A stretch of DNA of 63,156 nucleotides, filler included, from Sphacelaria rigidula (Eukaryota), in the NCBI GenBank assembly GCA_964200075.2. It is 5 parts of 5 records of this genome, joined end to end, with 100 filler letters (N's around TTAATTAATTAA, not from the genome) between each part and the next. Parts side by side here need not be neighbours in the genome. Positions count along the whole stretch, not along the records: positions 1 to 12,553 come from CAXNAA020003640.1; 4 more parts are not named here. One strand, written 5' to 3'. Made by a program: the position numbers and the translations under genes. The notes under the pieces are model-generated. The model was not told the origin of the DNA, did no database searches, and worked only from the letters and a program-made list of their open reading frames with translations. Positions 1-46,893 of this stretch are shown piece by piece. Each line of letters begins with the position of its first letter. Within the stretch, counting starts at the first letter, position 1.

Positions 1-231
1 TGACCTCGCATCCCTACAAAGCCGGGACGGAGCACGCCGGGTTTTCGCCGGACCAGGCTCGGGAAAAGGGGGGGGTCGGGTTAAATAGTACTAGCCGTAT
101 GAACCACACACCCCAAAGAAGCGCAAAGTACTGGTGCGCTCACGGAGAAAGTGACACAACACATCTCAAGAAAAAAATCTCATTTTCCGGTGGGTGTGCT
201 GAACAGGGCACACCTACCGTGCGCGTCTTAC

Positions 232-444
232 CCTGGAAAGAAACTTCTCGGAAAGCACCCTTCGGCAAGCGAACGGGAGCCTTGTTCACCCCACCCTCCG
301 CGCCGCCCCCTCCCCGACCGCCGTGAAGCCTCGGTGCCGAAAGAAGCTCCTCCTCCCTCTGCTTCCGCTCCAGGCGTTTCGCGTGGGCCTCACAATGCAC
401 GCCGGACTTGAGACAGCATTCGAAGCAGCTGCTCGAGGAGCATC
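232..444 (-). CDS. Exon 3 of the EsV-1-7 repeat protein; completes an LRP1/SHI-type zinc finger; gene continues beyond the left contig end
   Basis: Acceptor TTCAG|GA is phase-compatible with exon 2. Translation reads G-CSSSSCFECCLKSGVHCEAHAKRLERKQREEELL...FREVSFQ. Donor CAGG|GTAAG. Confidence 0.75.
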
Positions 445-654
445 CTGAACATTTTAGGCGTTGCCGTCGAGGTCAGGGCTGGGATCGAGGCTACTACTAC
501 GACTGGAGCGAAGTAGCCGGCTAGACAGGGTAGGGCGGATCTACGCGAGATCGAGGGGCTATTAATAGTGTTTTGGGGGGGTACAGAACAGGGTAACGGT
601 TAGCGTTTTCCAGGCTTCAGGGTCATAGGTTGGAGTTCGGCGATACTAAGATGA

Positions 655-933
655 GAGCAATGCTACGTACGGTAGGGGTTGTACTTGTTTAGCGAAAATG
701 TTTCTCGGAGCTGCTCGGGGTGTTGGACGGGTCATTTTGAGAATCGGCATTACATTTTTTTTTCTTCAAAACTGAAAAATATGCCGATTCACGAAAAGCC
801 CCCTGGGTGCGAGCACCATGTTTCTGGGAGTCCCCGGAGATTTTGGGTTGCACAGTAAGCTCCGTATACATTGGGGCTCTTACAAAAAAGAGACCCAAGA
901 ACAAAAAGTGGAGCCCTTACCGTAGCATTGCTC
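655..933. mobile_element. Sola2-like MITE (GAGCAATGCTACGGTAGGGG TIR family), intronic
   Basis: GAGCAATGCTAC(GTAC)GGTAGGGG ... CCCTTACCGTAGCATTGCTC; 279 bp, same TIR and size as 53044-53321. No clear TSD. Confidence 0.7.
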
Positions 934-2677
934 GATAAGGGGGTATTTTTGCGGCGCCAGGTTTCGGCGATGTAACAGGAGGTATGGCAGGTGTGGGAAA
1001 TGATTATTTTGCCGGTGCGATGTGATCGACGGATCCCTGAAATCCTAATGCAGAAAAAAAAAAAACGGTTTTCGTATCTTCCTGTAAAGATCACGTACGA
1101 TTGTGGGAATTGTAGCCTCTGCCAGACGATCGGGACAAGAGGACTTTCAACGAGGGACTCCTCCAGTATCACTGGCGTCGGGCGCTGACAAGTCCTTCCT
1201 TCTAACTTGTTATTATCTCGGAGCGATCCTCAACAGATCACGCGACAGACAGCAAGGGGCCACACAGAAAAGGGGCCATCAATCCAGAATCCCCTGTTCC
1301 CTGCCACTGCTCCAATAATCATATATGCGATTATACTGAAACCCTACGGCTTGGTATTATTTGGCTACCGAACGAAACAGGTTTATGATAGTACATCGAA
1401 AGTGCCTACTTTTTTGACTGAAGAGAAGAGATCGCACAAACCTTGCAGATTCACGAAAATGATCCTTCATATGACCGTCACTTTCGTGAATGCACGAGAC
1501 TTCAAGAACGATATTTTTTTCTTCAGCAAGAAGCAAGAAGTCAAACCGCGCGCACCGAAAATCGCTCAATTGTGCAATCCTCTCATAATCAGGGCTGTGA
1601 ACTGGCAGCTCTGGCCAGTGAACTTTAAACTGCCCCCGTCAGCGGCAGGTACTTCGATCTTTTTAGCCGCGAGCTCCAATGGTCCCCCGCCCGGCTGGTG
1701 AAGGGCCCTCGCGGGAGCGCCACCGGGGGCAAGAAAAATTGTGGTATTTGGCTTGTGTTCGCTTCAAAAAATGTGGATAGTTGTGAAAAAGATGACCCCT
1801 CACATTGACGAGCTAACAGGTTCAGATTACGTTAAACTCCCGTTCAAAGTGGTGAGCGAATCGAAAGTCTTTCATCTGTTTAGCATGCAGTAGCAAGAGA
1901 CTCCCCGTGAGGAGCGGAGGATGGGACAAGGCTGGCAGCGTGTGGGAATGAGAGCGCAAAATCACTCACGTCCGGGCCGACAAACACGCACGCGTGTAGT
2001 TGAACAGCAAGTCAGTGTTTGTTTTGTATTTTGTGGTTGCGGGTTACCGTTTGTTATTGATTTTGTTTCCGAATGTCGTGGAATGAAAACGACAAACCTT
2101 GGCACATATCCGCTAGATCACTTCGAGGTGCAGTGAGGATGTGCTACATAATGTTCCGAATACTCTCCGCCATGCAATAAGCAATTGGCATTCGGGGTTT
2201 GGCGTTTGGGAGTTCCGCATCAAGCGTCCCGCCGTAGTCACAACTCCTCTTTTTTTCTTCATCTTCCTAATTCGACGGACCAGCCGTCGACCTACACGCT
2301 GCGGCCGAAAAAACGGGAAAATACAGAACCGCGAGGTACCGAAGATTCAGGCGGGACAAAACAAAAAGCAGAAAACACAGCAGTCAGCTAGCGACTGGCC
2401 CAGGGCAAACTCGTTCTTCATGTGCTATGGTACTACGACAGAACGCCAGATGTGCTGTACAAGTCGACCGAAACACGGAAGACGAAGTATGAAGCTGTGC
2501 ACCGCTGCTTCACGCACCATTGATAAAAAAATTCCATCGATGCCTTCGAAGCGCCCTACATTTCAATTGATACCCGATATATCTCTGCACCTGTAAAATG
2601 CAGGCCTCAATGGTGGTCAAATGGTACATAATGGTGTAAGCATGTTTGTTATAAAAACCACCATACGAAAATTGGTA

Positions 2678-3197
2678 CTTCCTCTGTCCCGTAAGTAAAG
2701 GTATCTAAATTTGTACGGGCCCTTAACGATGTCCGATCGTTTTTTTTTTTCTTAAATGAGCTCTACGGTGTTTTTTGGGTAAAGAAAATGTGTTTAAAAT
2801 TTTTAACTTGAGCTTGAACCACGCCGCCGAACGGCTGCAAAATAAATAGCCGGCCCAAAAATGGCCGTTTTTTGCCCCTTCCCGAGGGGAAAAAAGTGAC
2901 ATTTTTTTTTTTTAAATCGCATGGGACTTCCTGGCAGCAAGCCCCAGTGAAGGCGGGGGCAATTAAAAAAAAAATCGACACTTTTTTTCCCCTCGGATAG
3001 GGGCAGAAAACGGCCATTTGGGGGCCGACTACTTTTTGTGCAGCCGTTCGGCGGCATGGTTGAAGCTCAAGTTGAAATTTTAAACACATTTTCCTTACCC
3101 AAAAAACACCGTAGAGCTCATTTAAGAAAAAAAAACGATCGGACATCGTTAAGGGCCCGTACAAATTTAGGTACCTTTACTTATGGGACAGAGGAAA
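2678..3197. mobile_element. Tc1/mariner (Stowaway-like) MITE with ~240-bp terminal inverted repeats
   Basis: TA|CTTCCTCTGTCCC ... GGGACAGAGGAAA|TA. The two halves are clearly reverse complements with a short central spacer. Confidence 0.85.
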
Positions 3198-3528
3198 TAT
3201 AAAAGTAGCCGGTAACGGCAAACCTCAAGCAAACTGGATAAACTGGCGCCCTCGTCGCCAGGTCCAGTTTAACTCCAGTTCCACTCTAATCGACAGTATA
3301 AACTGGTTCAGTTCCAGCCCTACTTGATAGATAGCACAGCAAGTCATTCCGAGGTCGTACTATCCTATCCATCTCGCCGTCTTGTCATGCGAAAACCACT
3401 GCAGAAGGGTCAAAATAGGCACCTTCGGGGAGAAGAAAAAAATAAACGTTGTAATTCCCGTCAGAAGTGGTCGAAAACATGTGAAGAAAACAAAACGACG
3501 GCAAAATAAAACTCTCAACTGCTCTCAC

Positions 3529-6500
3529 CCAGCTTGGCCGCACGGTGGCAAACGATACACCGAGTACCTATCCGCACGCCAGACTTGCTGGAGTGAGACG
3601 CGTGGCTGCCACTTCTACCTCCACCGCCACCACCTCGGCCGCCGCGACGACAACCCGGTGCATCCCCGCGCTCGACGGTCGCCTTCCTGGAAGAACTGCC
3701 GGTCGTCACCAAACTTCGCGCCTTTTTCGCCGAAGGCTGAGCACGCGATGAAGACACCTCAGCGCTGCGCTTTGTGGTTTTAGCGTCCTTCGCATCCGCT
3801 ACTCCAGCTGCCTTGGCCGAGGATACCCTCGCCTTCCCGCGTTTCTTTTGTACGACGACGGAACCGGCACTGATACCAGCGGCGCAGTTACGACTCCCCC
3901 TGCCGCCGCTGCTACTCCGAGCTTTGCCTCTAGCACTCCCTGCGCCCGTTGACTTTGCCGGAGCTGGCTTCGAGAGATGTCTACTTGTGACCATAGCCTT
4001 GCCCTTGCCTTTACTTGTATCTCTAACTTTACCTTTACCTTTGCTCTTTACGGCACCGAGTTCAACCGCGGCCGAAGTGCGAGCACGCAACACTCCAGAG
4101 CTCCTCGACAACAACCCCGACGACACGACGCCCTTCCCGGCACTGCCGCTACTGCTACCCGCGATGCCACGTTTCTTCTTTCGGGTCAGGGTCAAGTTAG
4201 CAGATCTAGATCTGCGTTCGGCGTCAACACCAGACGGCCGTTTTCGTTTTCCTGGTATCGCGGACACAAGAGACGTCGAATTGATCCTTTTGTCGGTGCT
4301 CCCGCTCTGCCGAAGCAAACGTTTCTTTCCCCGCAGGGTTTTCAGGTTTACCATCCCCGGGAGGCCATGGTCCTTGCAGTAATCGCAGCTGCCGCCGATG
4401 AACCCAAACGAAGCGTGCTTGTAGCAGGATGGATCCGCGCATAATTGCTTCTTGGATTGGTTTTCTGTATCGGACTTCTCTGCTCCGGTTGTTCGCTTGT
4501 CTGCCGATAGGATTCTGCCGCGGCCGCCGGTACCGAGCTTTTTGAGCACACGCTGGGGCTTGGCACGTACAGGCGCAGACCTTTTCGCTCCTCCTCGGCC
4601 AACGATAGCGCGACCAGCAGTGGAGGCTCCGCACTTTTTGGAGATTGCCGTTCGGCCGCCGCTGTTGCTCCTACATGATCTTGCCTTGGTCACAGCAACG
4701 CACTTATTGCCAACGGCGGTGGTCCGCTGGCCCTTTTTGGCCGGCACGGTTCCTATCTTTGCTTTCTTACGCACCTTCGCGGCCTGCTTGCGCCTGCCGG
4801 CGGGGGTGGAAGAGACTGCTACAGCAGCGGCGACGGTGGCGGTGGCGGTGGCGGTGAAGGCGGCAGCGGCGCCGAGACGCAGACGCTTCTTGATCTTGTT
4901 TTTATCCAGGTTGACCATATCGGCAGCCTTGTGAGTACCGCAGTACGTACGCTGACCGTCCCGGTGTCCGAATCTTGCTGCCACTAAGCAACCTGGTGCG
5001 TAGCACGCGATTTTGTGGGATGTCTTTCTCACAGCAGCGATGCCACTACCGACACGGGCCGCACTCTTTGCCGCGGCCTTTCGTGACGCCGGTTTGCCCT
5101 CCGCATTTGCATACCGCGCATTGTTCCGCGACGCCTTCCACGCACCGCCGCCGCGCAAGGTTTCCGCCTTCTTAGCGTTCATCGCAAAGCGGGCCAGGTT
5201 TACCATGCCTGGTAGCTGATGCAGGCCGCAGTATTCCCTAGTACCCGTTTCCAGGTAGCCGAAGTTGCCGTGCAGGGGACAGGTGTCACTAGCCCCCAAG
5301 CAAAGCTTGGTGCGGTGGCGAGGGCGGTCTCTCCTGGCCCGCCGAGGACGCCTGGTCGGAGAGATGACGCACGCGTTCGCCGACTGCGATGATGGCGTTG
5401 GACTGACGCCGAGCCCCCGCATACCACCGCCGCCCCGCACTCGCCCGCCGCGGTTGCCACCTTCCAGCAGCAGGCCACCCCCGTTCTTGAACGGTTTAAC
5501 GGTTGAAAGTCGTTTCTTTCCTGTAGCTTTCAAGCCTTCGCCGCCGCCGGGGTGGCCAGTGCGCTTGCAGCCACCACCACCAGTTGAGTAGGGACGCGGG
5601 GCTGTCGCGGATAAAGCAGCCTTGCAGTGGTTGCGATTGATCATGCCGTCCTGTTTGTGTTTGCTACAAAATAACCGCCGTTGTCCCGGAAGACCGAAGG
5701 AGGCCGTGATCGTGCACGCCTGGAACGGGTAGGTGCATTTCGTGCCAAGTTTCTTCTTTTTTTCCTTCATCTCGGCCGGCCGATTCTCTCGCTCGCCCGC
5801 GTTAATCTGCCCTTCCGCGTTCCCCTTTCCCGTTCTACTCTTGCTGGTAGCTTTCCGCCCCCCTTCCTTCGTATTTGAGGGTACATTTCCTTCCCCTCTC
5901 GAATTCGTACTCCTCACGCGTGTCTCCGCGCCTCCCGAAACAATCGCCGCCATCGCTGAAGCAGCGACCGTCGACGACGCAGACAGCACAGAAGACGAGC
6001 CTTTACCCCGACTACCGGTCCCGCTACTACCCGTCCCGACATGGACGCCTTTACTCTGCTCGGATATTTCGTCTGCAAGACCGGGGTCCAAAATGACGGG
6101 TGCTCTCACCACGCGTCCTGAGGATCGTCGCACGGCCGACGGCTCTGTATTCAATGATTCAGAACCTGTTCCATCTCCAGAAGTTGAATCCGACGTTCGC
6201 ACCGACGCGGTGCTTCGAGGGTTGGGCGTTGGTGAGGAATAACTGGTGGGCAGCCGCCCCGAGCCGCGGCCTTCCCAACGTCGAAGAGCTTGCTTCTGCC
6301 CACTGGAAATACGCGACAGTTTCAACCCCCTCATCGGGGTAGAAGCAGGCGTGCTATCGCTTCTGATCAAGTCATCGGAGGCACTTGCGCTTTTGTCAAA
6401 AAATGAGCCTCCGCCCCCACCAACGCTCCTCCTACTGCGCTTCTCGATTTCGACGATTTTCCGCTGCCTGACGTCCTCGTCTATAAGACCAGGGTCCAAG

Positions 6501-7985
6501 ATGACTCGTGCCCTCACAACACGCCCCGAGGTTCGTCGCGCCACCACCGTTTCTTTTCTCGGGCTCGTTTCATCTCCAGAAGACGAGCCCGTAATTCCCG
6601 TCGACGCGGTGGTGCGGGGGTCGGACGTTGGCCACGAAGAATCGGTGGGCGGCTGTTGCGCACCAGGGCCTACCGAATTGTGAATGGCTGGCTCCTGCGC
6701 ATTTATATAAAGCGGTTCCGGCTCCCTCGCCGGGGTCGAAGCGAGTATCCTGACGCTGTCTACACTATCGGATACAACTACACTCTTGGTGTGACGGTGC
6801 CCATCACGGCCGCTGTCCATGTCACCCTCGCTGGCACCGCCGCTATCACTATCATTATCGCCGCCGACCCCACTGTTGCCGGCATTGGGTACGTCGTCGG
6901 ATCCGCTTGGGTTTCCGCTGGCCTTGTTGTGCTCCTCTCGGCCGCTTTTCCTAACGTCACCGTGGTCGTCACCATTATCGCCACTGCTGTCCCCGTCATC
7001 GCCGGCACCGGCCGCACCGCCGCAGACGCCTGTGCTATCGGTACTGAATCTGATGTTAGATCCATTCACGCTGTGGTTGGCGTTGATGTGCGTCCTATGG
7101 CTGCGGCCGCCAATATCGCTGACACCGCTACCGCCGCTGCCGCTGCCGCTGCCACCAGTCGCTGTGCCGTCGAGCCCACTTGTGCTGGAGTTGGTGCTGG
7201 TGTGCCCTTTATGGCTGCGGCCACAAGTATCGCGGCTGCCGTTGCCGCTAGTAGCTCCGCTCTTCAGCCCACTTGTCTTGTCGTTGACATCGGTATACCC
7301 CTCATGGTGGCGGTCACCATTAGCACTGGCAATGCCGTCGCCGCCACCGCCGCTGGCGCTAGTCGCTACACTGGTGGATCCATTGGCGCTGTGGTTACCA
7401 TTGCTGAACCGCTCATGACCGCAGCTACTGCTACCCTCGCTACCACCATCACTGTCGTTACCCCCACTACCGCTAGCTACGACGCCGTTGGATATAATTG
7501 CGCTGTTGATGGTATTGATGTGCTTCTCGCGGTCGTTGTCGCTACCCCTACCACTAGATTCATTGCCGCCGTCACTGCTGCTACTGATGCCACCGTTGGA
7601 TCCACTTGCGCCGTTGTTTTTGATGCCGTGCTCGTCTTGACCGCCGGTTTCGCTATGACCACGTTCGTCACTATCGACACGACCAGCTGTTGTCTGTTCG
7701 ATGGTTCCGCTACCTCTCAACCGATGGTCATTAGCGACACTCTCCGCGGCCGCGACACTAGCGCCCACCATCCCCCGCGCTGTGTGAGGAATTGTTGCCG
7801 TGGTCGTCGCTCCGCCACCGCCACTAACGCTGTTATTTCGTCCGCGTTTTCTGCCGGCGGTCAATGGACGGTTGCCCGCTAATTGTCCTGTCGGATAGGA
7901 AGAGGGCTTTCGGGCGCCGTGTCTCGGGGGCGCCCGCGTGAGGTCGATCATACCTGCTTTCCTATGAAGGGTGCAGTAGTCGCCT
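3529..7985 (-). CDS. Exon 2 (4457 nt) of the EsV-1-7 repeat protein: Gly/Ser-rich and Lys/Arg-rich low-complexity regions with four complete EsV-1-7 repeats
   Basis: Lies within the 1497-aa ORF. Acceptor CAAAAG|A completes the split repeat (..GDYCTLHRKAGMIDL). Repeats of the form C-x3-6-C-x5-FG-x7-8-C-x2-H-x3-(G/D)M(V/I)N are at about 5635-5740, 5195-5305, 4910-5010 and 4345-4442. Donor CTGG|GTGAG (phase 1) is followed by T-rich intron. Confidence 0.88.
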
Positions 7986-9107
7986 CTTTTGTCAGATAGA
8001 CACAGCACCGGTGGAAACGCGGAAAGAGGGACAGCAGCGTTGATTGTGTTGCGTTAACCGTGGCTTGCGTTTTCTTGAAAGGTCTTTTTTGTGCGCATAG
8101 ATCGCTCGATATTAGCATATACTCCAAGACAGGGTGTACACGACGGCCGCTGGGTTGGTGCATACATCAGCAACAAACGTATCTCGAGTACGGTGCACCA
8201 CTTAAGAGTTGATGTGTGGCATCAAATGAAGTACATGGAGAACTGCATAATGGGTACGACAAAATTGGTGGAAAGCTGATCCACCCCAAGCTAAAACCAC
8301 CGGCTTTGCCGCAATCCACTAATCGATTAACAGAACAGCTGAAGCACTGTAAACAGCTTACAGTGGTCACATCAACATTTGCCCATTCGTAACCCTCGCC
8401 ATTGAAACCGCCTTGCAATGACCTCAATCACTACCCCTGCCGAAACGCCACAGCTTCACGTTACATTCCTACGTACTGCCCCATACCCACCGACCCTAAT
8501 CGCAGAATGGTCTGAGCACATTTCATCAGCTTCCAGATCCAAGTTGTTGAACCGAGATTTCCTCATGATCTGAGAATCAAAATGCCGCCACTTCAGGTTC
8601 CCCGGAGCCGGTATACAGTCGTTAGAGAGAGGCGTTTGGTGCCTCAGCGGTGATATGTTTTCTTGATCGTTTTAGTTATTCCGTGCGTCAGTTGTGGTTT
8701 GAGTGAAATACTTTGAGCAATAAGGGGGCTGTTCCCACAAGTCCTGGCATTTAATGGAGGTCGAGCAACAGGGAGGAAACGTGGGACGTTCCATGTTTCT
8801 ATCCATTAAAGGCCAGCACTGGGTAATATTTTGTGTACAATATCGTTCCTATCGCTTCTGAGTGGTACCCATGATGCAGCCGAAATGAGGGTAAGGGATC
8901 ATGGCTAGGAATAAGGTCGTTCCAGCTGACCCGATCTCGGGAAGGACACAATCACGCCAGGATCAGGAACAGGTAAGACGGTAGCGAAACGAACCAGGGT
9001 TCGAAACACAGTCCCTCTCCCCCACCTTCCTCCAATGTGGGCGGCAGACGAAGGTGGCATGAAATCGTTTGGTACAGAGTAGCGGAAAAACGAACGTTAC
9101 AGTACCG

Positions 9108-9449
9108 GTCGCCCCGGTGGCTCAGTTGGTAACCCAGAACATTCTGACGGCTGGGTCGTGGGTTCGAATCTCGGCGCGATCACACGATCTGGGACTTTTC
9201 CTCACGCAACACCCAACAGTGAAGATCGACTGTGTCGTGGATACACGACAGTCTGCCTCACAGTCGACGAGGGAGAGGGATCGCGAAACCCCTCTCGCGA
9301 TGAAAACGAAGAGTAACGCGACAGAAAGTGAAGTGCCGAAGGAGAAAAGGAAGATAAGCCCATGTGTCGACCTTCCTCCTTTGTGACCTCGGCTGCTGCG
9401 TGCAAAAATACCGACAGGTGTAGCTGAGTACCACAAGTAAAAAAAAAAA
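9108..9449 (+). mobile_element. tRNA-derived SINE in intron 1 of the EsV-1-7 gene
   Basis: Pol III A box TGGCTCAGTTGG (9118-9129), B box GGTTCGAATC (9161-9170), ~270-bp non-tRNA body, A-run at 9439-9449, possible AGTAC TSD. Confidence 0.7.
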
Positions 9450-11023
9450 GTACAGCACGATAGCCGTGAGACAGACTTGAGGAGTCCTAGCCTATCTCAT
9501 CGACGCAGACAAGTTGGGTCTTGACTTGCACTTCTTATCAAAAGCCAAAATAAGGTCCAGATTGCTATCTACTTGATAGCCCCGCCATTTTTTTTCGCTG
9601 ATTGAAAGCCGTGTCGAGTAAGTCCCGTGACGTACGGCGGTATCTCCGTACTCAAGTCTAGACGAAACACTGAAAGATGTGTACAGCGGATGACGATTTT
9701 TTTGGTGCAGGTACTTCTTGGGGCACGGGGAAACGATCGATACCCCTACCTTCACCTAATTCAATATCTATTCGAAGATATGGCCTGCAAAAGATTCCAA
9801 AATAAACTCAGAATATTACGAGGGGAGGAGGCACTAAATGCACTACATCTCGATCTCGCGTCTCAGTTTCGAGAGGTATACTTTGAGTTTGGTGGGGAGT
9901 ATCGAAAAAGAAAAAAAAAAAAAAAATCGACAACTTGGAATATATTTTTCTTTCATGAGTCAAGGACGTTTTTTTGCAAACTAGGTATTGTTTATTGCCG
10001 TTAACTCATAGCACACAAAATTTGCATTCAGCACCTCAGTATCGAGAGTTTTGCTCCGAAGTGTGATGTGGAGAAATCACAAGGGCATAACACAACAAAA
10101 GTTGCCATCATTTTTCCGCAAAAACGTTCTTAACTCAAGAGGTAAAAAAATCTCCATGTCTTCGTGTTTTCTTGTGTTCTGCCGTTACGATTCCATATCA
10201 AACCATATCAAACCTCAAAGCACGGCTCTCTCAACTTGGCTGTTAACTTGCCTACAATCATACAGCTCTGTTTCTAGGCTGACTCAGTCTGCAAAATAAA
10301 TTAGGATTAAGCAGCTCGTCTTTGAGAGTTGTACTTTGAAATTTGGTATGGAATATCGCGAGGTCATGATGAAGAATAAACCTAATGTGAGACATCAATC
10401 ATTTTTTCTTGTCCTCAAGAAATTTTGTGAAAAATAGATCCTATTTCTTGTCACTAACTCATCGTATATATATATATATATATATATCAAAATCTGGCCG
10501 AACTTTTTTATTGTGCCCTCTCCATAACAAATTTCAGAGCACAACTCTTAAAATCGACATGCTCGATCGCCTGCAATAGTCAACATCATTTTTAAGGCTT
10601 GGCCAGGCCAAGGTACTTGGATATCTCAACTGCGTGTCCTGGAGGGTCTCACTTGTCTTTGCATAGTAGCGTATCCTGTCAGGCTGCGGTACCTTCATCT
10701 TTGTGAGCTTTGCGGATACGAGGATTTGCGAGTTTTCGGGTATGTTTATGTGTGTGTGATGGCGTGGTTTCCACCGAATGTACGCCACAGGATACTGGAA
10801 AATAACTCCACACACGTGGGGCGCGCACCATATTCGTTGTATACCACCCCTTTTACTGTAAAGAGAGTAGTGAAACGAAGCAGGTTTCAAGTCACAGTCT
10901 CATGCGGGAAGGGTTGGTGACTTCACGCCCCGTGAACACCAAATGATAAGAGAGCCCTACGTATATTTTTCAAATTCACGAAGCCCCCTGGATCAGACGG
11001 ACTGCTCCTAGAAATCGGCGCAC

Positions 11024-11802
11024 CTGCCGTCCTGGGGAAAGCCGTACACTGGACTCAAAGCACATCTCTCCGCACCCCGACACCTCGGCTCCCGCATATC
11101 CACCATACCCTTTGCCGCATGGGCGGAGCACGCCACCGCAGCACCATCCTCCACCCTCCTCCCAAATGTCGCCCGCTCAGAGCAGCTCTCACGGGTGCAG
11201 TAAGGCACTCCATCTCTACCAACTTTGATGTTGTGGCAGTTACCGTTCAAGCTTGCGGCATCGCTGCTGATACTGTTGCGCGATCGATCGGAAGCTGGTG
11301 CTGTAGTGATTGCTCGAGAGGCAGCTGCGGTGGCAGCGGCGGGAAAGGGGATTGGGGGACAGGAGAGGGCGGGAGCGATGGTACAGCTGTCATAGTTACT
11401 GGCATCGTTGTCCTGTGGCAAAGGTACCTCACGACCGCCGGTTGTGTTGCCACCGCGATCTGCGGCCACCTCCTCGACATCAAGGCTACTCTCGGGTCCG
11501 TGCACATGCCTGTTACCGTTCGCCTCCATGGCGTATGCATCATCAGCTACCACAGGCGCTTCAGGGGGCAATAATTGCGCGGATGCCGAAGCCCCGCTAC
11601 CCCCGCGTCGGCTGTCACCGCCCACCCCGTGTCCGCCTTCGCCGACTTCGGTGCTGCTACTATGATTTGATGGGTTGGACATCGTTGTTGTGGTCGCTGG
11701 AGCGACGCCTCCTCCGACGGCGGGAGTGGTGGTGGCGACGATAAGAGCATCGCTGATGATGCTCGGATGTGCCGCCACCGTTCCATCTGCACTAAGGTTC
11801 AT
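11024..11802 (-). CDS. Exon 1 (putative) of a large EsV-1-7 repeat protein; first ATG at 11802, true start uncertain
   Basis: ORF 11008..11904 contains the EsV-1-7-type repeat CTRESCSERATFGRRVEDGAAVACSAHAAKGMVDM and the first half of a second (CRGAERCALSPVYGFPQDGR). It ends at donor GGCAG|GTGCG (phase 2). Confidence 0.8.
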
Positions 11803-12067
11803 ACGGTTCTCGTGCTGTTTGCGCAACCCACCTTCGCAGCAAACTGTAGCGAAGCTCTCTGCTTGTACATGAATACTCGTGCTGTTTCCGTGTGGATTTA
11901 TCAAGGGATAACGAAACCCTCGCGATGTTCATGATCCAAACATTGTGCACAGCTACATCATCGTTTTCCAAATCAAGAAACAGTCACGTTGAGGTACATC
12001 AAACACCTGTACACTTGTAAACTTCTGAGACAACTTCAGGTACAAGGCTGGTGGACACGCAATTTAT

Positions 12068-12205
12068 CACCCCCTGGACAAAAGATTACATTGCCAAAAA
12101 GTGTACTGCGTATAGGATGAGCTATTGCGTATTTTGCAACAGACAATACATTCTATACTATGCGCAGTACATTTTTTGACAACGTGATCTGTCGTCCATG
12201 GTGTG
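12068..12205. mobile_element. Small MITE with CAC...GTG termini and ~45-bp imperfect TIR
   Basis: CACCCCCTGGACAAAAGATTACATTGCCAAAAAGTGTACTGCGTATAG pairs with CTATGCGCAGTACATTTTTTGACAACGTGATCTGTCGTCCATGGTGTG. Related termini at 17261-17420. Confidence 0.55.
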
Positions 12206-12498
12206 CAATTTACCCAAAACGCGGGTATCTGATTGGTCGGTCAATTGCAGACCGAGGGGTTGTACCTGAGACTACTCGCTGGAGATAAAAGGTGGATAGA
12301 ACGGCAGAAATAATGTTGAAAATGTTTTGCACTACACAGATTACATTTTTTGTAAAAAAATGTATTGCTTACGGTATTGGCTTTGAAGTAGTCGATTCGT
12401 GAGTTCAGAGTCGATATGAGAGTAGTATGACGAGTCGGGATTCTAATTATATCGGGGCAGGGGTTGATAAAGTCGTACGGCTCGGGCGAGAAGCCAAA

Positions 12499-12553
12499 GA
12501 GCAATGCTACGGTAGGGGTGCACTTTTTTCGCGAAATTTTCTCTGGTTCAGGG
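12499..12553. mobile_element. Sola2-like MITE end, truncated by the contig end
   Basis: GAGCAATGCTACGGTAGGGGTGCACTTTTTTCGCGAAAT; near-identical to the reverse complement of 60327-60374. Confidence 0.7.
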
Positions 12554-38101: not shown

Positions 38102-41100
38102 TTAAACCGTCATAAGTTGTAAGTACCGGATGGCTGCGCGACATAGCGGTTCTGCGGTTTGTTCGCGAGCCCAATCGCGGTGGAAGTAGCTGGCGAGAAA
38201 CTCGCGTGGTTGACCTTTCGCTGGCGAGCCGACCAAACATGGTGGAGCAGGCGGCGGGGGAATAGGCGACAGGGCGGAAATGACGACGTCAATATCTGTC
38301 CCGGAGACCGGAGCAAAGTCGTCAGCGCCGTGCTCGGGAGCGGTAAATATCGGCGGCGCCGTGGTGGGCGGCGGGGTTGTATCAGTGCGCGGCGAAGATT
38401 GTCCACGGCTCGTGGCGCACGGGGCAGAAGTTGTCGCGGAGCTTTGCGTGTTGGTCCGCGGAACTTGTGCTGGGTGGCTCAGAGAGGTTTTAGATGTTGT
38501 CGGTGGCGGCGGGGAACTCAGTGTGTTGCGGGCGGCAGACCGGGAGCGCGTGTTGTCGGAGATAAGGTGGGTGACTGGAGGTGTCTCCGCGAAGAGTTTT
38601 GCGCAAGTACCGCAAGTGCGAAAATCGACAAAATCGGAGGTAGTGGGCTTTAACCCACCCAAGACGACGTCATATGGTAGAGGGCGAGATCCTCCCATAT
38701 GCATACCGGTTTCCGGGCACTGGAGGTCGAGGGCGTAAACGGGCGTTGAAAAACGTCGGATCGCGTAAATTCCAGGTTCATGCAGAGGTAGGCGGGAAAG
38801 AAGGTCAGCGTTCCCGTTGGTTTGGCCTGGACGGTGCTCAATGGTATACTGGTATGCTGTTAGAAACTCCAACCATCGTTGTGCACGAGGGTTGTGCTCG
38901 CCAACCTTGGCGAGTTCTTCAAGTGCTCCGTGATCCGTATAGATCTCGAAGGGCACGTGAAACAGGTATTGTCGAAGGCGCTTAATGGCCCAAGTGATTA
39001 CGCCGTCTTCCAGTTCTAGCGGGCTTCAATTGACCTCGTTGCGCAGGGTAGCGCGGCTGATATGAAGGATGGATCGGACGAAGCCATCAACCTGAGGTTG
39101 ATTCAAAACTCCTCGAAATCCGTTTATGCTGGCGTCAGTATGGAGTTGGAAAAGGCGAGAGCCATTTTGTGCTGCCTCCCAATCAGGAAAGCAAGCTACG
39201 GGCTTTACGGTAAGCGTCTTGAGTAATTGGCGGGTGATATTCTCCATTTCGGTTGTGGAAGAAAGCACGGCTCTTTTCTTGAGTAGTTCAGTAAGGGGGC
39301 AAATCCGTTTAGATAAATTCGGCAAAAATTTGCGGTAGTAGGACAGTCCGCCCAACAATGAGCGAAGCTGAGAAATGTTTGTTTGCATCGGCAAATCAGT
39401 CATCACCTTGACTTTGTTTGTATCCGGATGCAGGCCTGCTGGCGAAATGGAATGCCCCAAGAAATTCAAGTCAGTCGCACCAAGGCGAGCTTTTGATGGA
39501 GACAGTTTCAAATCGTGCGTGCGTAGGTGAGAGAGAAATTCTCGTAGAGTGCATATATGTGCAATAGGTGAGACATCGGAAGCGATAGCGTCATCCAAGT
39601 ACATGATGACGTGCTCGAGGCCCTCGGTGACGCGTTGCATTAAGCGTTGAAAGCACCCTGGGGCAGTTGCGGCGCCTTGTGGCATTCGAAGCCACTTATA
39701 GAGTCCGGGCGACGTGCAAAAAGCCGTCAGTGGGACTGTGTCAGGATGTATAGCGTTCTGAAAACATCCAGAAGCGAGGTCGAAGGTCCTGAATATTTTG
39801 CCTTCGCCTAAGGAGTCAAAGGCTTCATCAATGCGGGGAAGTAGGAGTTTGCCGACTACAGTGACGCGGTTCAACCGTTGATAATTCACTGTTATGCGTA
39901 AGTTTCCATCCTTTTGGGGGACGACTACAAGGGGCGAGGCCTAAGGAGAGGAGGAATGTTGTATTAATCCCGCTCCCAGATAAGCATCCAAGATGGCGTT
40001 AACTTTCTTGGTAAGGATCGGGTTTGTTTGTTATGGCCGAGAAGAAATCGGCGAGACACCAGGTTAGACGGTAACCTCAAAGGGCAGTGTTTTGGAATGC
40101 CCAAGATCCGTCTTGGATCGGGAAAATCGGTCCTGGTACTGTAGCAGGACATCACTGAGTTCTTGGGTGACTGCCGGTTCCCAGCCGGGCCCATGAAGGT
40201 CAAAGTTGATGTCGCGCATGTGTGGCGGCAGTTGGTTCCACATGTGCAAGAAGCTATTCCGGGAATACGGTGATAAGCGTTGAAGCACTTCAGCGGGAGG
40301 ATCGGAATACGACTGGGCAGGATCCACGGTGTGGATCTGGGGTGGAGTCGTAGAGGCGAGGTTGAAATAGGGTTCATCGACACAATCGACTGACTCCGCC
40401 AGAGCCGTCGACACAATCGACTGACTCCGCCAGAGCCGCGCCAAACGCACGTGTCGAGTAGGATGTGCATAGGGGAGAAGCGGCGATTCCTAAACATCGC
40501 CGGGTTCCAAGTTGGCATGACCCGTAAGAGGGAGGAGTTGTTGTCCCGCCGACACAGAAATTTCTGTGTCGGCTGGTGCGCCAATACGAGGTAACATTTT
40601 GGCAAGATAATGGCCCGTAAGTGGTGGCATGCCATTTCGGCAAACTAGTGCAACTTCAAGAAGTTGGGGGTCGTCGGAGAGTGTTATACCCCCGCTACCG
40701 TTATATCGTAGGTGGAAAGCAGCTCCGGTTGCTTGAGAAATCTTCTGATCAGCCAGGGCGCCGTGGAGAGTCCCGAAGTGCTCGGGGCTAAATTTTCCAC
40801 GCGGCGTGGAATGTGGCGTTAATGGTGGAAGCGTGCGGTGGGTGCGTTTATTAAACCGCATATAGCTATCTCTGCCCAGTAATATGGCGTGATGCATTGT
40901 GTTGTCGGGACAATGTATGCCCAGACTGCCAGGCTGGCAGATCGAGTGGTGTTGTGAAAGAATTGTACACTGAGACGTACGGATTTACGTGTCGTCAGTG
41001 GCGCGGCAGAATCACCGAAACCGCCCCACACGCGAGGTTTGGTGGTGGTTTCGCAAGCTGCAGTAGCAGCGCCAATCTGTTTCATGTGTTTCCATGTTGA

Positions 41101-44100
41101 TTCTCTAATAAATGTTTGCGGGCTGCCGCTATCCAACAAGGATACGCATTCCGTAGGCGTGATAGCGTTTGGACCGGAATGGATCACAACGCGAGTAGTG
41201 AAAGTGACCGGATCTACAGACACTTTACCGCCGACAAGATCCGGACCGTGTTCCGGCAGGGTAAACTGGTCAGGATCAGCGGGGCTGACAGTTAAAACGC
41301 ACGGCGGGTGATCCGCCGGTGGGTCAGATGTCTCACCAGAGAAGGGGGTGGGCGGTATATTATTTTCAGGTGTGGCACGGTCAGAGGGACCAGTGGCGAT
41401 TTCGTACATGATCGCCTTTGGTTGACAGGGATCATCGTCGAAGGGGGATCCAGAATGTGCGGGGCTGGAGTCGTCGGTTGAAGAAGTAGTGCCGTCAGAA
41501 TTATATTATTTTCCTTCTTCCGGGAGACTTGATAGAGCCGTCGAACTCAAAGTCGTCGCATTTTGAAGAGATTGAGGTCGAGGATTTCCGCTTGAAAGAG
41601 GTGTACGTCATGATGCGCGCGCGTCCTTGGGGGCATGCTTACGGGGCTTTCTCTTTCGCCGTGACAAAGGGCGGGGAACTTCCAAAATTTTGGGATGAAA
41701 CCACAACTGCGTCCAGTTGCGTGGATGGGGTCAGCATCGTGGTATGACGGAGCGAAACTTATGGGCTGCTTTCCGTAGGCAACCTTGGCTGTTGGGGCAT
41801 AGCCGAAGATATGTTGGAGCGGTTGTTAGTAAAACCGGCCGAGGGTAGGTCCGTGCGTGCTGAAAATCGCGGGGGAGGAGCTCGATCCAACTGATTGGGA
41901 ATTAACTTATCCGATTTGATCAAGTTCAAATCAGCAACGCTGGGGTCAGCTGAAAAGGGCTTGCTACTACCTGTGCGTGTGGTCGCTGAGGGAAACCTTT
42001 GCCTCAGGGACTGGCGGTTGGTCTTCCCACACCTCAGACTCATTCTCGGCACTGAAGGACCAAGTTAAAAGCCGAGTGTAGGTCTGAGTCGCGGGGTGAC
42101 ACAATTGTTACGCGGTGTGTGGAGGGATGAAGACGGGGGTCGATATGAACGGTCGTCAGTTGCACTCCTGCATAGTGCCGGGAGAGTCGGGCGGGCAATC
42201 TTGGTCGCGGGCTCTGTGGGTTGTGTTGAAAATTGTGTGGAGGTTAGAGACGGGGGTCGATTTGAACGGCCATCAGTTACGCTCCTGAATAGTGCCGGGG
42301 GAGTCGAGTGAGCAATTTTAGGCACGGACTCCGCGGGCTGTGTTGAGAAAGTCTTCGCTCGTGCTATCGACGGCGTGGAAGACCAAAGAACGCCGGCGTC
42401 GGCACGTCATGGATCTAAGCGATCTGTAGTGAAGGTACCAGGGTTTCTGGTGTTGGGATTAGAACTTTGTGTCGGTCCCGTCCGCTGGTCTGTGTCTATC
42501 AGCGGAACGTTTGTTGTCGCGAGAATTTTGATCGGTCTGGCGAGGGCTTGCGTGATCGCTGTTTTATCGGCGACCGCGATTAGAGCTTTTGTTGCCACGT
42601 TGGTTCGAATTGTTACGGTAATTTCGATTAGGTGGACGGTAGTCGCGCATGCGTTTTTGCCATCGGCGCCACGCGGGGGATCATTGTCCTGTAATTCAGG
42701 GTTCATGAGATCAAAGGCATTGACGCATGGACTGTCGCAGTTGCGCATACTGTGGCCTTGATGACTACAGTTGATGCAACTGTTGGCATGACTGCTGAAG
42801 GCATTGCGTCTAGCGGAAGACGAAAGAAGTGGGTTCCACAAATAGGGGTCATCGGTTATGAATGCCGTTGTTGAGGTCAAATAAGCATCATGCCAAGTTT
42901 CCTCGGAAAACAGCCAACCATCAAAACTCGCGCTAAATGCATCTATGGTACTCTGAACATGCATAACTGAACCGGCGACTGAGTCGGGGGTCAATGAAGC
43001 GCGAGACGAGCTCGAATTCCTGCCGCGAGCCCCTTGGGCATGAGCGGAAGACACAACCGTAGGTTGTGAACGCACAGACGTAGAAGGTTTGCCACGTATG
43101 GCAGGCGTTAGATTACCCTCTTGGTGTACAAAAGCAGACCACAAAGTATCAACGGAGGCGTAAGGCACCTCGCGATGCGCCAAGACACCCGAAAATAACG
43201 ACGGCATCAGAGCCGGATACTGTTGAGCTACGCTATTGCGAACGTACGTTTGACACATTGCATCGCTCGGTCCGTTCTGGCGTCCGACACCCGTCGTACC
43301 CGAAACCAAAAGCTTAAATTCGCGGAGATAATCCGCGAAGGGGACATCAGATGCGACGACAAAAAGAACTCAGCCTCTGGATGGCACTGGCCTGGTCACT
43401 TTTATCGAAGTAACCGATCAAACGCCTCTCCAAATCAGAGAGTAATACAGGGCCTTTCTACCCCTTGGCACGGTCTGGGTCCATCTCGGCGAGGAAGCCG
43501 TCGAGAATCTGCGTTAAAGAAGCAGCGAAGTCGGGAGAGCGACGGCTGATCGATCGATGCATTGCTTTGTGCAAGGGAGTCTACCAGCCCTCTACCCAGT
43601 CGGAATATTCGAAACGTTGTGTGCCAATCACACCCGCCAAGTGAAGGATGTTACAAACAGTACGGCGGATGGACGTGATAAGGGCAGAAATAAACTGGCC
43701 CAAATCTTCGTTATCCGCAGCAGGCATGGTTTTGATGCGCCAGAGTTTTTTTCACATCCATTTGAGTATACTGTCTCTGTATTGCAGCTACTCGGGCAGA
43801 TTCAGCTCTATCGGAAGCTGCTTTTTTGCTAGCTTCAGAACGTCATTTGTCAGCCGCAGCGGTTGCTAAGGCGCTGGCTGCAGTAGAAGACAAAGGACGT
43901 TCGGGTGTGTCCGTATCGGATAAACCTAAAATGCGGGCCGAAACATCAGTCAATTTAGGGATCACTTGCCTGGAGGTCGTGGAACCTGAGGGGGGAAGGT
44001 CTGTATGAGACCGGTTCCAGCTCGTTGCGGATGAACCGGAAGAGTTACCTCCGGAGTCCTTGCGGTGCGGTTTGCGAGGCGGGCGGTTCGGTTCGGAACC

Positions 44101-46893
44101 ACCCGAAGAGGATCCTCCACCGACATTGCGGCGGCATGAATTTCAGCCATCGTTGTCGTCGTCATCGTGCCTGTGATTCTTCTTCTGGCCCCGGCAATTG
44201 GATGTTGCGGGAGTCCACCCATCTTCATCTTCGTCTTCGTCGATGGCGGCGCCGGGATGAGTGGTGTAGGCGGCGCGAAGCGCCGCAAAAAGTTGGATGA
44301 CCGCGGCAACGTAAGTTTGGTGTTCCTGATGACTGCCAATGGTTGTTTGAAGAACCAGTTGGCCCAAGGTGAGCACCGGGACGCCCTCTTCGGGGATGAA
44401 GCCATTCTGGTCGACGTAAACCCCCACAGCATACAACATTCGGTCTGAGATTAGGGCCCATGCGTCGCGGGAGCAATGAAGGTGATTTCGGCGTTGGAAG
44501 GGACCGGTATAGGTGGTCACGGGACGAGAAAGCCACTCTCGTTCGTAGGACGCCAGTTGCAAGTCTTGTACAGAAACGGCATTCGCCGCCGAGCTCGCTC
44601 CATGAGGTGGCGGTGTTGGAGCTGTCGTGGGGGCAGCAGCGGCCGCAGCAGACGACGTCGTGTCGGACTCGCGTGGTATGACGTAAGCAGACGTGTTGGG
44701 CGTTTGCTGGCGAGGCTGGCGGACGCTGAGCAAGTGACTGGCGGAAGGCGGAGAGGCTTACTAGTTTGACAAGCGTGCCACCGACGAGTCCGCTTCTTGA
44801 GCCGTCCGCCGGACATGGTCTTCGAGCTCGCGCACCCGTCTCTGGGCCGCCATGGCTGCAGTACGGCCTTCCTGCAGCGCTCGTTGCGCCGCCGTGCTCG
44901 TGCATTGAGCATGGGAGGCCTGCCGCTAAAATTCCTTGAGCTTCTCTGCGTGGTTCTCCAGAAGGAGGCGGGCAGCGGCGGCGTCAGCGTCGCGTTGCTG
45001 ATCAAGGATGTGTTGTGTTAGTGCAGGTGCCTGTGACGCGTAGTCATCAATCAGTTGGAGCTGTTCCGCCCGGGGGCGGTTTGTGAACATCCTCAAAAGT
45101 AGGCCAGTCGGGCAGCGCTCGTCTTCGAGCGGAGGGAGAACCTCCACAGATGGGGGCGAGCGCACGGGGGCAGTGGTTGAACCACTGTCCCTGTCCGTGT
45201 CAACGTCAGACGGAGCGGCGGCGGTTAAAGGAGCAGCGGCCACGGTAGCGGTAGCAGCAGCTGCAGGGGTTGCGGCAGTGGTTGCGGCAGTGGTTGCTGC
45301 GCAAACGCCAGAGGGCTCCGTGGTGCGTTTGGCGAGAGCGGCAGGGGATCTTGTTGTGTCCATGGTTGATAGTTGTTGCTCGAGTTCTATCAAGCGTTGT
45401 TGAAGAGAACGAATAATCGCAGCATCGGAGCGGGACGGTGGATCGCGGTCAGTGTGGGGTCGTCGGTTTTGCAATGAGGTGCGGCCGGACCCTTCAATGG
45501 AGGAGTCCAGAGCCGGTGACATGTCTGAAAATATGCTTTGGATATCATCAGCATGTACAGCGTTATCATTGCGTACATGACGGCGGTGTGACAGATGCGG
45601 AGCAGGAGAGGTGCGCGAGGGCGCATAATCGGTGTTTTTCGAGCGCGAGTGAACGCGCGAAGAACTTGATCTGTGCCACAAGGCATCCTCGTGAGTGCGT
45701 TCACGGTTAGCATTCACCGGGCGCTTCTGAGCGCGCGATGAGTTGGAACTGTGACGTGAACTACCGTCATAACTGTAACCATGAGCGACGTTCTTCGGGC
45801 GTGTAGAAACGCGCGATGAATTCAAAGTTTGCTGGGAGTTGCCCTTAGAACTGACATAACGGGAGACGTGGTCGTGACCAAGTCTCAGTGTGCGGCGCCG
45901 GTCAGAAGCGCGAGTAAGGCTCTGGTGTAACGTTGAGGAAGAGCTGCGAACGGAGAGCGCGATGTCGCCGAACGGGGCGCCAAACGTACGGGTTTGGGCG
46001 TGGCAGGTGCAAAATCATCATTGAATTGTGCGTGAGCAGACGCCGATTGATCTTGGAGCGTGGCGTGGTAAAAAGCCGTGAATGCCTCGATGAGAGCTGG
46101 CGCTGGCGAGGGCGACGACGCCGATGAGGTGCGATGCCGAGTTTGCATGGCAGCATGCATGGCCGCAACTGCGGGTCCGACATTGGACTGTGCAGTAGGG
46201 CGTACGGGACTATCGAGAGTCGTGCGAAGGGGGTCCGTAACGGAAGTAGCCCGCGTGACAAAGTCTCTTGCTCCAGAAGCGATACGCTTCGTCGGGACAG
46301 AATCGTCTCGAGAGTTTTCAGCCGTCAAGCGAGGGGGTGCCACGGTTGAAGCAACCGTTACAGGGCCAAGCTGGACACGTGGGTCCAGGGGCAACGACTC
46401 AGCTGGGGGCACAATCCTGCCTTCGGATTCCACATTGGGATTCGGAAGAACAGGGCGCAGCGAGGGGGGTGCAACGGAATCCATCGTTATGGGCTCACTG
46501 ATATGTCCGTCAGGAACCAATGACTCAGCCGGTTGCACTACCTTGTTTTTCTGAGTCCGAGTCGGAACGTGAGAGAACAGGTCTCGGCGTCATAGTCTTG
46601 TCTTCAAGCCTTGAAGAACGGGCATCGCTCGAAGGTTGGTCTTCAGATCCCGAAGATCAAACAGCGCTCGCATACGTGCGGCGATGAGTTGAAGGTGACG
46701 TGACACTCATATTAAAAGATTTCGAACCGCCAGTAGTTTGACTCCGGGTCCGGCGAAGCGTTTGCTTTCCCAATCGGGGGGAAGAGTCAGCGCTATTTCT
46801 GTGCGACATGGTAATTGTACGCAACTTGTGTGCTTAAAAAGGCAGGGGTAGTGTGTCTGGTCTGCGGCTCTAATCAACAGAGCGTGACACCAA
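38102..46893 (-). mobile_element. Decayed Ty3/Gypsy LTR retrotransposon, internal region (gag, protease, RT, RNase H; integrase and 3' LTR not in the contig)
   Basis: CCHC knuckle CINCSHQGHSMRNC (~42745-42790), protease LLDSGSPQTFI (~41110-41140), RT NYQRLN..MPQGA..YLDD (39026-39889), RNase H TDAS..TDHGAL..NGNADLLSR. Stops and frameshifts present. PBS-like TGGTGTCACG at 46892-46883. Confidence 0.93.

What the first reader, a model, noticed from the sequence alone, without database searches (positions are those of the whole stretch)
232..11802. EsV-1-7 repeat protein fused to a plant SHI/STY/LRP1-type zinc finger that appears only after splicing
Seen in the sequence: joining donor 3529 (G|GTGAG) to acceptor 444 (CAG|GA) gives CIVCHRAAKLG-CSSSSCFECCLKSGVHCEAH, i.e. 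C-x2-C-x7-C-x4-C-x2-CC-x6-C-x2-H. Established knowledge: this is the spacing of the LRP1/SHI/STY zinc finger of land-plant developmental regulators, and a similar finger ends DUS1L proteins. EsV-1-7 repeats are shared with phaeoviruses, are expanded in brown algae, and occur in the Ectocarpus developmental regulator IMMEDIATE UPRIGHT. Inference: a basic, probably nuclear protein of more than 1800 aa combines virus-shared repeats with a SHI-like finger. I do not know this architecture to be described, and ORF-based annotation would miss it.
Basis: partly seen in the sequence, partly recalled or inferred. Interest (0 to 1): 0.75.

Follow-up and report, generated by a model that had tools for sequence, protein, structure and literature searches.

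The report
Seaweed repeat protein with plant-like finger
A spliced seaweed gene, shared with kelp and Ectocarpus, joins virus-shared cysteine repeats to a zinc finger spaced like that of land-plant growth regulators; the finger belongs to an unnamed, older protein module rather than to the plant family itself.

Summary
Observation confirmed. The three minus-strand exons join into 1816 stop-free codons, and contigs from probable RNA runs show both joins. The protein has six EsV-1-7 repeats (one also split by an intron) and a finger with the exact SHI/STY Cys/His spacing. Orthologues in Ectocarpus and Laminaria keep repeats plus finger.

It is not a SHI/STY member. There is no IGGH motif in this protein or the orthologues checked, and DUF702/TIGR01623 scores stay far below cut-off. 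The finger starts an unnamed ~105-residue module (finger, helix, GETATxWCxxDF motif) whose next exon probably lies on another contig. The module also occurs in a brown-algal paralogue without EsV-1-7 repeats, and in one unassigned metagenome protein (about 30% identity) behind an MBD-like domain.

Best reading: a nuclear, probably chromatin-associated protein in which an old module gained EsV-1-7 repeats. Function is inferred, not shown. I found no description in ten literature searches; a 2026 preprint reports no second Pfam domain in any Ectocarpus EsV-1-7 gene. The scan earlier noted the same finger type in another protist (e1-7200404).

The parts
11024..11802 (-). Exon 1 coding part from the first in-frame ATG; low-complexity N-terminus, EsV-1-7 repeat 1 and first half of repeat 2
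   Evidence: RNA-like contigs cover 11024-11931
11119..11199 (-). EsV-1-7 repeat 1 (first Cys to His)
   Evidence: Pfam PF19114, 28.6 bits
7986..11023 (-). Intron 1 (3038 nt, GT..AG); splits EsV-1-7 repeat 2 (11082 to 7964)
   Evidence: skipped in contigs of X1, X2, X8
3529..7985 (-). Exon 2 (4457 nt): Gly/Ser/Ala-rich region, four more EsV-1-7 repeats (5737-5657, 5302-5219, 5005-4931, 4441-4367), basic NLS-like clusters, first half of the finger
3529..3559 (-). 5' half of the SHI-spaced finger (C-x2-C-x6 and first base of the Gly codon)
   Evidence: conserved in P0004, P0006, P0017-P0019
445..3528 (-). Intron 2 (3084 nt, GT..AG, phase 1) inside the finger; holds a MITE-like inverted-repeat element at 2676-3199
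   Evidence: same phase-1 intron just before the third-ligand Cys codon in paralogue G000:C133
232..444 (-). Exon 3 (213 nt): 3' half of the finger (444-383), charged helix, Gly loop, conserved RLPKGAF.E stretch
1..231 (-). Start of intron 3 (GTAAG donor); runs off the contig. Probable exon 4 lies outside the window at G000:C20276:3754-3663 (minus, 92 nt, GC donor)
   Evidence: link to this gene inferred from phase, length and 19-20 of 30 residues identical to orthologue exons against 12-14 of 30 to paralogue exons

Best explanation
This is an expressed, multi-exon brown algal gene, one of two old paralogues that carry an unnamed C-terminal module. The module is a finger with seven Cys and one His, a charged helix, and a GETATxWCxxDF motif. 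This paralogue gained N-terminal EsV-1-7 repeats from the very large repeat family of brown algae. Shown: splicing, architecture, conservation, the paralogue without repeats, and a distant relative with an MBD-like domain in front of the same module. Inferred: the eight ligands bind two zinc ions; the basic clusters carry the protein into the nucleus; the variable N-terminal part (EsV-1-7 repeats here, an MBD-like domain in the distant relative) targets it to DNA or chromatin; the conserved module is the constant effector or partner-binding part. It most likely works as a chromatin-associated or transcriptional co-regulator. It resembles SHI/STY proteins in layout (finger, second conserved C-terminal block, low-complexity linkers) without being one.
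For: Splicing. Repeats plus finger in Laminaria digitata CAM9229021.1 and Ectocarpus CBN76143.1 and CAM9337358.1. Of 25 stored proteins, 8 hold a whole finger: all 5 with x7 spacing have EsV-like motifs upstream and none of the 3 with x8 does (only P0011 of those 3 is a full-length model). All eight ligands and G.TAT.WC..DF are invariant in the 5-row alignment that includes the metagenome protein L046. L046 was found by tblastn at E 2e-8 over query residues 38-96, mostly downstream of the finger, as 1 of 289 stretches. Its N-terminus matches Pfam MBD at E 0.0017, and 6 of its 10 PDB hits are MBD proteins. pI 10.3 with 8 basic clusters; residues 1201-1650 hold 103 Lys/Arg against 17 Asp/Glu. 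Plant LRP1 is nuclear and activates transcription (PMC4473986, passages).
Against: No experiment on location, zinc or DNA binding. The MBD match is below Pfam's cut-off (18.4 against 21 bits) and rests on one contig of unknown taxon, whose finger has a poly-Ser insertion before the last two ligands. AlphaFold models were poor (mean pLDDT 51.5 and 60.9). Basic low-complexity proteins may equally be nucleolar, RNA-binding or microtubule-associated. The function of EsV-1-7 repeats is unknown (PMC7457493, passages). Repeat number and total length vary widely (1-2 repeats in 630-782 aa in Ectocarpus against 6 in more than 1816 aa here), so the repeats are loosely constrained. The tree does not resolve the repeat-bearing clade or the root, so the order 'module first, repeats later' rests on distribution alone.
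Confidence: 0.55

Rival explanations
1. The protein is a true, divergent SHI/STY/SRS transcription factor (shared ancestry of the whole protein, or transfer from a streptophyte), and its GETAT block is a drifted IGGH domain.
For: Exact published spacing CX2CX7CX4CX2C2X6C (PMC9386158, passages). DUF702 is the only non-EsV Pfam match of P0006 and P0019 (E 0.025 and 0.04) and TIGR01623 their only NCBIfam match. The nearest Atlas cluster has 19% DUF702 (scores 0.78 and 0.81, lead only).
Against: DUF702 matches cover only model positions 2-39 of 151 and stay under the cut-off of 20.6 bits; TIGR01623 gives about 12 bits against 42. No IGGH in the window protein or in the 8 stored proteins with a whole finger. 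No NCBIfam match to the GETAT block in 11 proteins scanned. The family is placed at the origin of streptophytes (PMC7027972; PMC5737466 supplement rows). The paralogue changes the spacing to x8, and in this genome to x8/x3.
Confidence: 0.07
2. The finger serves RNA or protein binding outside transcription. It is an old eukaryotic finger type (recalled also at the end of animal DUS1L tRNA-modifying enzymes), and the protein is an RNA-associated or nucleolar scaffold.
For: The finger type is not confined to plants: L046; an earlier scan note of it in a Diphylleia-related protist (unchecked); an Atlas cluster, commonest taxon Arthropoda, with 19% DUF702. RING-like fingers of SHI are described as binding RNA, protein or lipid (PMC9386158). 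High Gly/Arg content.
Against: The only recognisable fusion partner seen outside brown algae is MBD-like. No RNA-binding or enzyme domain was matched in any member scanned. DUS1L could not be fetched; the three Dus-family contigs of this genome carry no such finger.
Confidence: 0.25
3. The match to the SHI spacing is convergent: an independent stramenopile Cys-rich domain, and the EsV-1-7 repeats are dispensable hitch-hikers from an abundant mobile repeat family.
For: Sub-threshold family scores, with no match at all for P0004, P0011, P0020 and L046. The own genome gave 4575 first-look candidates for EsV-1-7 repeats, so chance capture is easy. The paralogue lacks them.
Against: All eight ligand positions fit, and the distant L046 keeps x2-x7-x4-x2. 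The repeats are kept in front of the finger in Ectocarpus, Laminaria and this genome, which argues for selection.
Confidence: 0.13

Closest known systems
Plant SHI/STY/SRS (LRP1) transcription factors, Pfam DUF702 PF05142, TIGR01623
   Same: Identical Cys spacing in the finger; finger plus a second conserved block in low-complexity sequence; basic NLS-like clusters; weak DUF702 and TIGR01623 matches in 2 Ectocarpus orthologues.
   Different: No IGGH; scores far below cut-offs; finger near the C-terminus of a protein of more than 1800 aa; preceded by EsV-1-7 repeats; followed by a GETATxWCxxDF block with no match to the SHI models.
EsV-1-7 domain proteins of brown algae, including IMMEDIATE UPRIGHT (Pfam PF19114)
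   Same: Six PF19114-type repeats; member of a very large family in this genome.
   Different: Repeats are dispersed, not in a tandem array, and are followed by a second conserved module. A 2026 preprint found no other Pfam domain in any Ectocarpus EsV-1-7 gene (10.64898/2026.04.27.720984, passage). Orthology to IMM was not tested; the best Ectocarpus match is CBN76143.1.
Ectocarpus CBN76143.1 (D8LL83) and Laminaria digitata CAM9229021.1, unknown proteins
   Same: Probable orthologues: 62-64% identity over 105 module columns, x7 finger, Gly loop, upstream EsV-1-7 repeats.
   Different: 1-2 repeats and 630-782 aa in Ectocarpus models, against 6 repeats and more than 1816 aa here; none is annotated with the finger.
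Ectocarpus CBN79855.1 (D8LNI0) and paralogue G000:C133
   Same: Same module (45-50% identity), same intron inside the finger and same 92-nt next exon in C133.
   Different: No EsV-1-7 repeat in the full-length Ectocarpus model; finger spacing x8; different C-terminal tail.
DUS1L C-terminal finger (recalled, from no call)
   Same: Recalled to have a similar C2-C-C-CC-C-H pattern.
   Different: Not tested; no Dus domain in this protein.

Membership tests
SHI/STY/SRS | RING-like finger CX2CX7CX4CX2C2X6C | tested here: met
   Exact spacing in the spliced window protein and in 5 orthologue records; pattern from PMC9386158.
SHI/STY/SRS | DUF702 (PF05142) above its curated cut-off, the TAPscan rule for SRS | tested here: not met
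   Best 15.6 bits against 20.6 (P0006); matches only model positions 2-39 of 151. The spliced window protein itself could not be scanned; its exon 3 alone gave no match.
SHI/STY/SRS | TIGR01623 above cut-off | tested here: not met
   11.8 and 12 bits against 42 for P0006 and P0019; no match for the other 9 of 11 proteins scanned.
SHI/STY/SRS | C-terminal IGGH domain | tested here: not met
   No IGGH in the 1816 aa or in the 8 stored proteins with a whole finger, which include full-length Ectocarpus models. The last exon(s) of the window gene were not found.
SHI/STY/SRS | Nuclear location, promoter binding and transcriptional activation | not testable with these tools
   Only basic clusters and pI 10.3.
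SHI/STY/SRS | Same three-dimensional finger fold | tested here: inconclusive
   Models of pLDDT 51.5 and 60.9; no usable structural comparison.
EsV-1-7 domain proteins | At least one PF19114 motif above cut-off | tested here: met
   130.6 and 28.6 bits against 25.
EsV-1-7 domain proteins | IMM orthology by IMM's unique N-terminal domain | not tested
   IMM sequence was not fetched; criterion from 10.1101/2024.02.19.579948.
DUS1L | Dus (PF01207) catalytic domain | tested here: not met
   No PF01207 match in the window exons or orthologues.
DUS1L | Homology of the C-terminal finger | not testable with these tools
   No DUS1L sequence was returned by any search; resemblance is recalled.
MBD proteins (for relative L046 only) | PF01429 above cut-off | tested here: inconclusive
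   18.4 bits against 21, E 0.0017; MBD2, MBD3 and plant MBD6 chains among the PDB hits at E 0.02-0.9.

The most novel reading that the evidence does not exclude
The finger-plus-GETAT module is an undescribed, ancient eukaryotic chromatin factor whose finger shares ancestry with the plant SHI/STY finger. In brown algae its DNA-reading N-terminal domain (MBD-like in a distant relative) was replaced by virus-shared EsV-1-7 repeats. That would make the repeats DNA or chromatin readers, give the first molecular handle on the IMM family, and show plants and brown algae independently recruiting one finger into developmental regulators.
Probability: 0.18. Interest if true: 0.78.

Novelty: new variant of a known kind. 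Interest (0 to 1): 0.52.

Why it matters
EsV-1-7 proteins are among the most expanded brown algal families and include the developmental regulator IMM, yet the repeats have no known molecular function, and a 2026 preprint found no other Pfam domain beside them in Ectocarpus. Here is a low-copy member, conserved from Ectocarpus to kelp, with a second conserved module. It has a natural control (a paralogue with the module but no repeats) and a distant relative with an MBD-like domain in the repeats' place. That makes 'what do EsV-1-7 repeats bind?' testable in the model alga. It also adds to the evidence that the SHI/STY finger type, treated as streptophyte-specific, exists in other eukaryotes.

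Tried and rejected
Exon 3 alone against longer proteins: 0 of 341 candidates. No run on record as RNA was listed; the RNA label is a guess.

Viral origin of the finger module: no relative in viral contigs (0 of 62 and 0 of 116 stretches) or in prokaryote genomes (0 of 28). These scans are insensitive to distant relatives.

Structure: PDB sequence searches gave nothing or only linker matches. Foldseek gave no match at E 0.001 for either model. The wide VIA search had best Z 2.6. The models are too poor for this to say anything about the fold.

DUF702 over the own genome: 4 of 4 candidates below cut-off and not fingers. Dus loci of the own genome: three contigs, no finger motif; a DUS1 orthologue was not identified, so this is inconclusive.

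Last exon(s) of the gene: not found with P0017, with its C-terminal stretch, or on C20276. L046 against the own genome gave only low-complexity matches. P0009 (bacterial EGF-repeat protein) was dropped as a Cys-pattern false hit. The first tree had the paralogue out of frame and was replaced.

The antisense ORF 6407-7879 has no Pfam match and is taken as a shadow of low-complexity exon 2.

Macaisne et al. 2017 was not held. Supplementary tables S15 and S17 of the brown algal genomes preprint were not seen and may list this gene. The scan's own notes held nothing for this sequence or genome.
Full report
1. The observation. Window positions 1-12553 are one whole contig, G000:C3640. On the minus strand, exons 11802-11024, 7985-3529 and 444-232 join into 1816 codons with no stop. 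An in-frame TGA at 11931-11929 makes 11802 the first usable ATG. The finger has the spacing C-x2-C-x7-C-x4-C-x2-CC-x6-C-x2-H, with its first half at 3559-3529 and its second at 444-383. The SHI pattern arose in 0 of 20,000 shuffles of the joined protein. The 444 acceptor is not pyrimidine-rich and was not among the 5 strong acceptors in the intron, so sequence alone was not proof.

2. Splicing evidence. I laid 4 of the 8 listed runs on 1-12553. X1 and X8 each give one 5492-nt contig made of 11931-11024, 7985-3528 and 443-318, which is both predicted joins. The two are probably one data set, having identical length and depth. X2 gives the first join, and a 2670-nt contig that starts at exon 3 and continues about 2450 nt beyond it. 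X5 runs unbroken over 3239-9127, as DNA would. The RNA label is the tool's guess, but clean loss of two GT-AG introns is what transcripts show. A low-depth X2 contig at 416-731 (depth 3.8) spans the intron 2/exon 3 border and may be unspliced RNA or DNA.

3. The repeats. Pfam EsV_1_7_cys matches 5 stretches in exon 2 and 1 in exon 1. After splicing there are six complete repeats, one of which is also split by an intron. The genome gave 4575 first-look candidates for this repeat, of which 150 were scored and all passed the cut-off. Being an EsV-1-7 protein is therefore ordinary here.

4. Relatives. A profile of exon 3 and its paralogue found 10 proteins among 1.84 billion. One is the window's own exon and one a bacterial EGF false hit. 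The named ones are Laminaria digitata CAM9229021.1, Ectocarpus siliculosus CBN76143.1 and an Ectocarpus paralogue cluster with CBN79855.1. Further searches gave 3 of 8000 and 10 of 2893 candidates; the named ones are Ectocarpus, Laminaria and Scytosiphon. Two groups emerge. Group A (this gene, Laminaria, Ectocarpus; 62-68% identity between genera over 105 columns) has the x7 finger and upstream repeats. Group B (G000:C133, CBN79855.1, Scytosiphon CAN0122826.1) has x8 spacing and, in the one full-length model, no repeats; it is 45-50% identical to group A. Group B has bootstrap 73; group A and the root are unresolved. The C133 paralogue has the same phase-1 intron inside the finger.

5. The real unit is larger than the finger. 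All members continue with a charged helix, an RL.KG.F.E stretch and G[ED]TATx[WF]CxxDF. In this genome the matching next exon is G000:C20276:3754-3663. It is 92 nt, has the right phase, and shares 19-20 of 30 residues with group A exons against 12-14 of 30 with group B. The link to the window gene is inferred, not read through. This exon ends in a GC donor. An unnamed relative reads the same four residues past the exon end (P0024) and the Laminaria model stops exactly there, which suggests a conserved GC-AG intron. One metagenome contig, L046 (1 of 289 stretches, E 2e-8), has an open frame without introns that carries the same module at 27-31% identity. All eight ligands and the x2-x7-x4-x2 spacing are kept, with a poly-Ser insertion before the last two ligands. 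It has no repeats; its N-terminus resembles a methyl-CpG-binding domain (Pfam E 0.0017, below cut-off; 6 of 10 PDB hits are MBD proteins). Its taxon is unknown; being distant and intron-free, it is probably not a brown alga (inference).

6. Is it SHI/STY? The family is defined by the finger and an IGGH domain (PMC9386158 and PMC5440560, passages), is classified by DUF702 (PMC5737466, supplement rows), and is placed at the origin of streptophytes (PMC7027972, passages). The spacing is met. DUF702 reaches at best 15.6 bits against 20.6, over the finger only; 4 of the 8 proteins scanned that hold a whole finger match it at all. TIGR01623 reaches 12 bits against 42. IGGH is absent. So it is not a member. 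Shared ancestry of the finger is plausible but unproven: the Atlas's nearest cluster has 19% DUF702 at scores of 0.78-0.81, a lead only, and an earlier, unchecked note of this scan reports the finger in a Diphylleia-related protist. The DUS1L likeness is recalled only.

7. How it probably works. Shown: transcript, architecture, conservation. Inferred: two zinc ions in the finger; nuclear import through basic clusters (pI 10.3); targeting by a variable N-terminal reader; a constant effector role for the module. I put chromatin or transcriptional co-regulation at about 0.55, an RNA or nucleolar scaffold at 0.25, convergence with dispensable repeats at 0.13 and true SRS membership at 0.07. Structure prediction did not help (pLDDT 51.5 and 60.9).

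8. Novelty. IMM is a protein of unknown function with EsV-1-7 repeats, and the family is expanded in brown algae (PMC7457493, PMC12993054 and 10.1101/2024.02.19.579948, passages). A 2026 preprint states that no Ectocarpus EsV-1-7 gene has another Pfam domain (10.64898/2026.04.27.720984, passage), which fits a sub-threshold finger being overlooked. Ten library searches (mostly listings seen) showed no description of this architecture or module. Macaisne et al. 2017 and the supplementary tables of the genome preprint were not seen and could mention it. Verdict: a real, conserved, apparently undescribed architecture; a new variant of the EsV-1-7 proteins with an unnamed module; moderate interest, mainly as a handle on EsV-1-7 function and on the history of the SHI-type finger.

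Noticed in passing
L046:317-1153 (+): Intron-free metagenome frame with an MBD-like N-terminus, the same finger interrupted by a long poly-Ser run before the last two ligands, and the GETAT block; taxon unknown.
   Followed up: partly
G000:C20276:3754-3663 (-), locus L010: Probable exon 4 ends in a GC donor; an unnamed relative (P0024) reads the same residues past the border and the Laminaria model ends there, hinting at a conserved GC-AG intron.
   Followed up: partly
G000:C133:2654-5787 (+), locus L006: Paralogue with exons 2654-2701, 3652-3831, 4863-4954 and a probable last exon from 5521 whose basic Trp-containing tail matches Ectocarpus CBN79855.1; finger spacing x8 and x3.
   Followed up: yes
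window 6538 and 6130 (-): Two diverged internal copies in exon 2 that end in RR[TS]SGRVVRA.VILDPGL.DE. By recall this resembles Arg-rich motifs that bind the nucleosome surface; untested.
   Followed up: no
window 2676-3199: Element with long inverted arms (73 nt at 96%, 61 nt at 98%, 124 nt at 81%) inside intron 2, MITE-like.
   Followed up: partly
window 6407-7879 (+): 491-codon antisense frame over exon 2, no Pfam match; probably a shadow of low-complexity coding sequence.
   Followed up: partly
window 38105-39940 (-): Reverse transcriptase and RNase H frames of a retroelement on another contig of the window; further long frames at 42410-43369 and 44228-46014.
   Followed up: partly
window 12554-50608: The window is a chain of short contigs separated by N runs; only 1-12553 belongs to this gene's contig.
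   Followed up: yes
G000, whole genome: 4575 first-look candidates for EsV-1-7 repeats, many as several hits in one long open frame.
   Followed up: no
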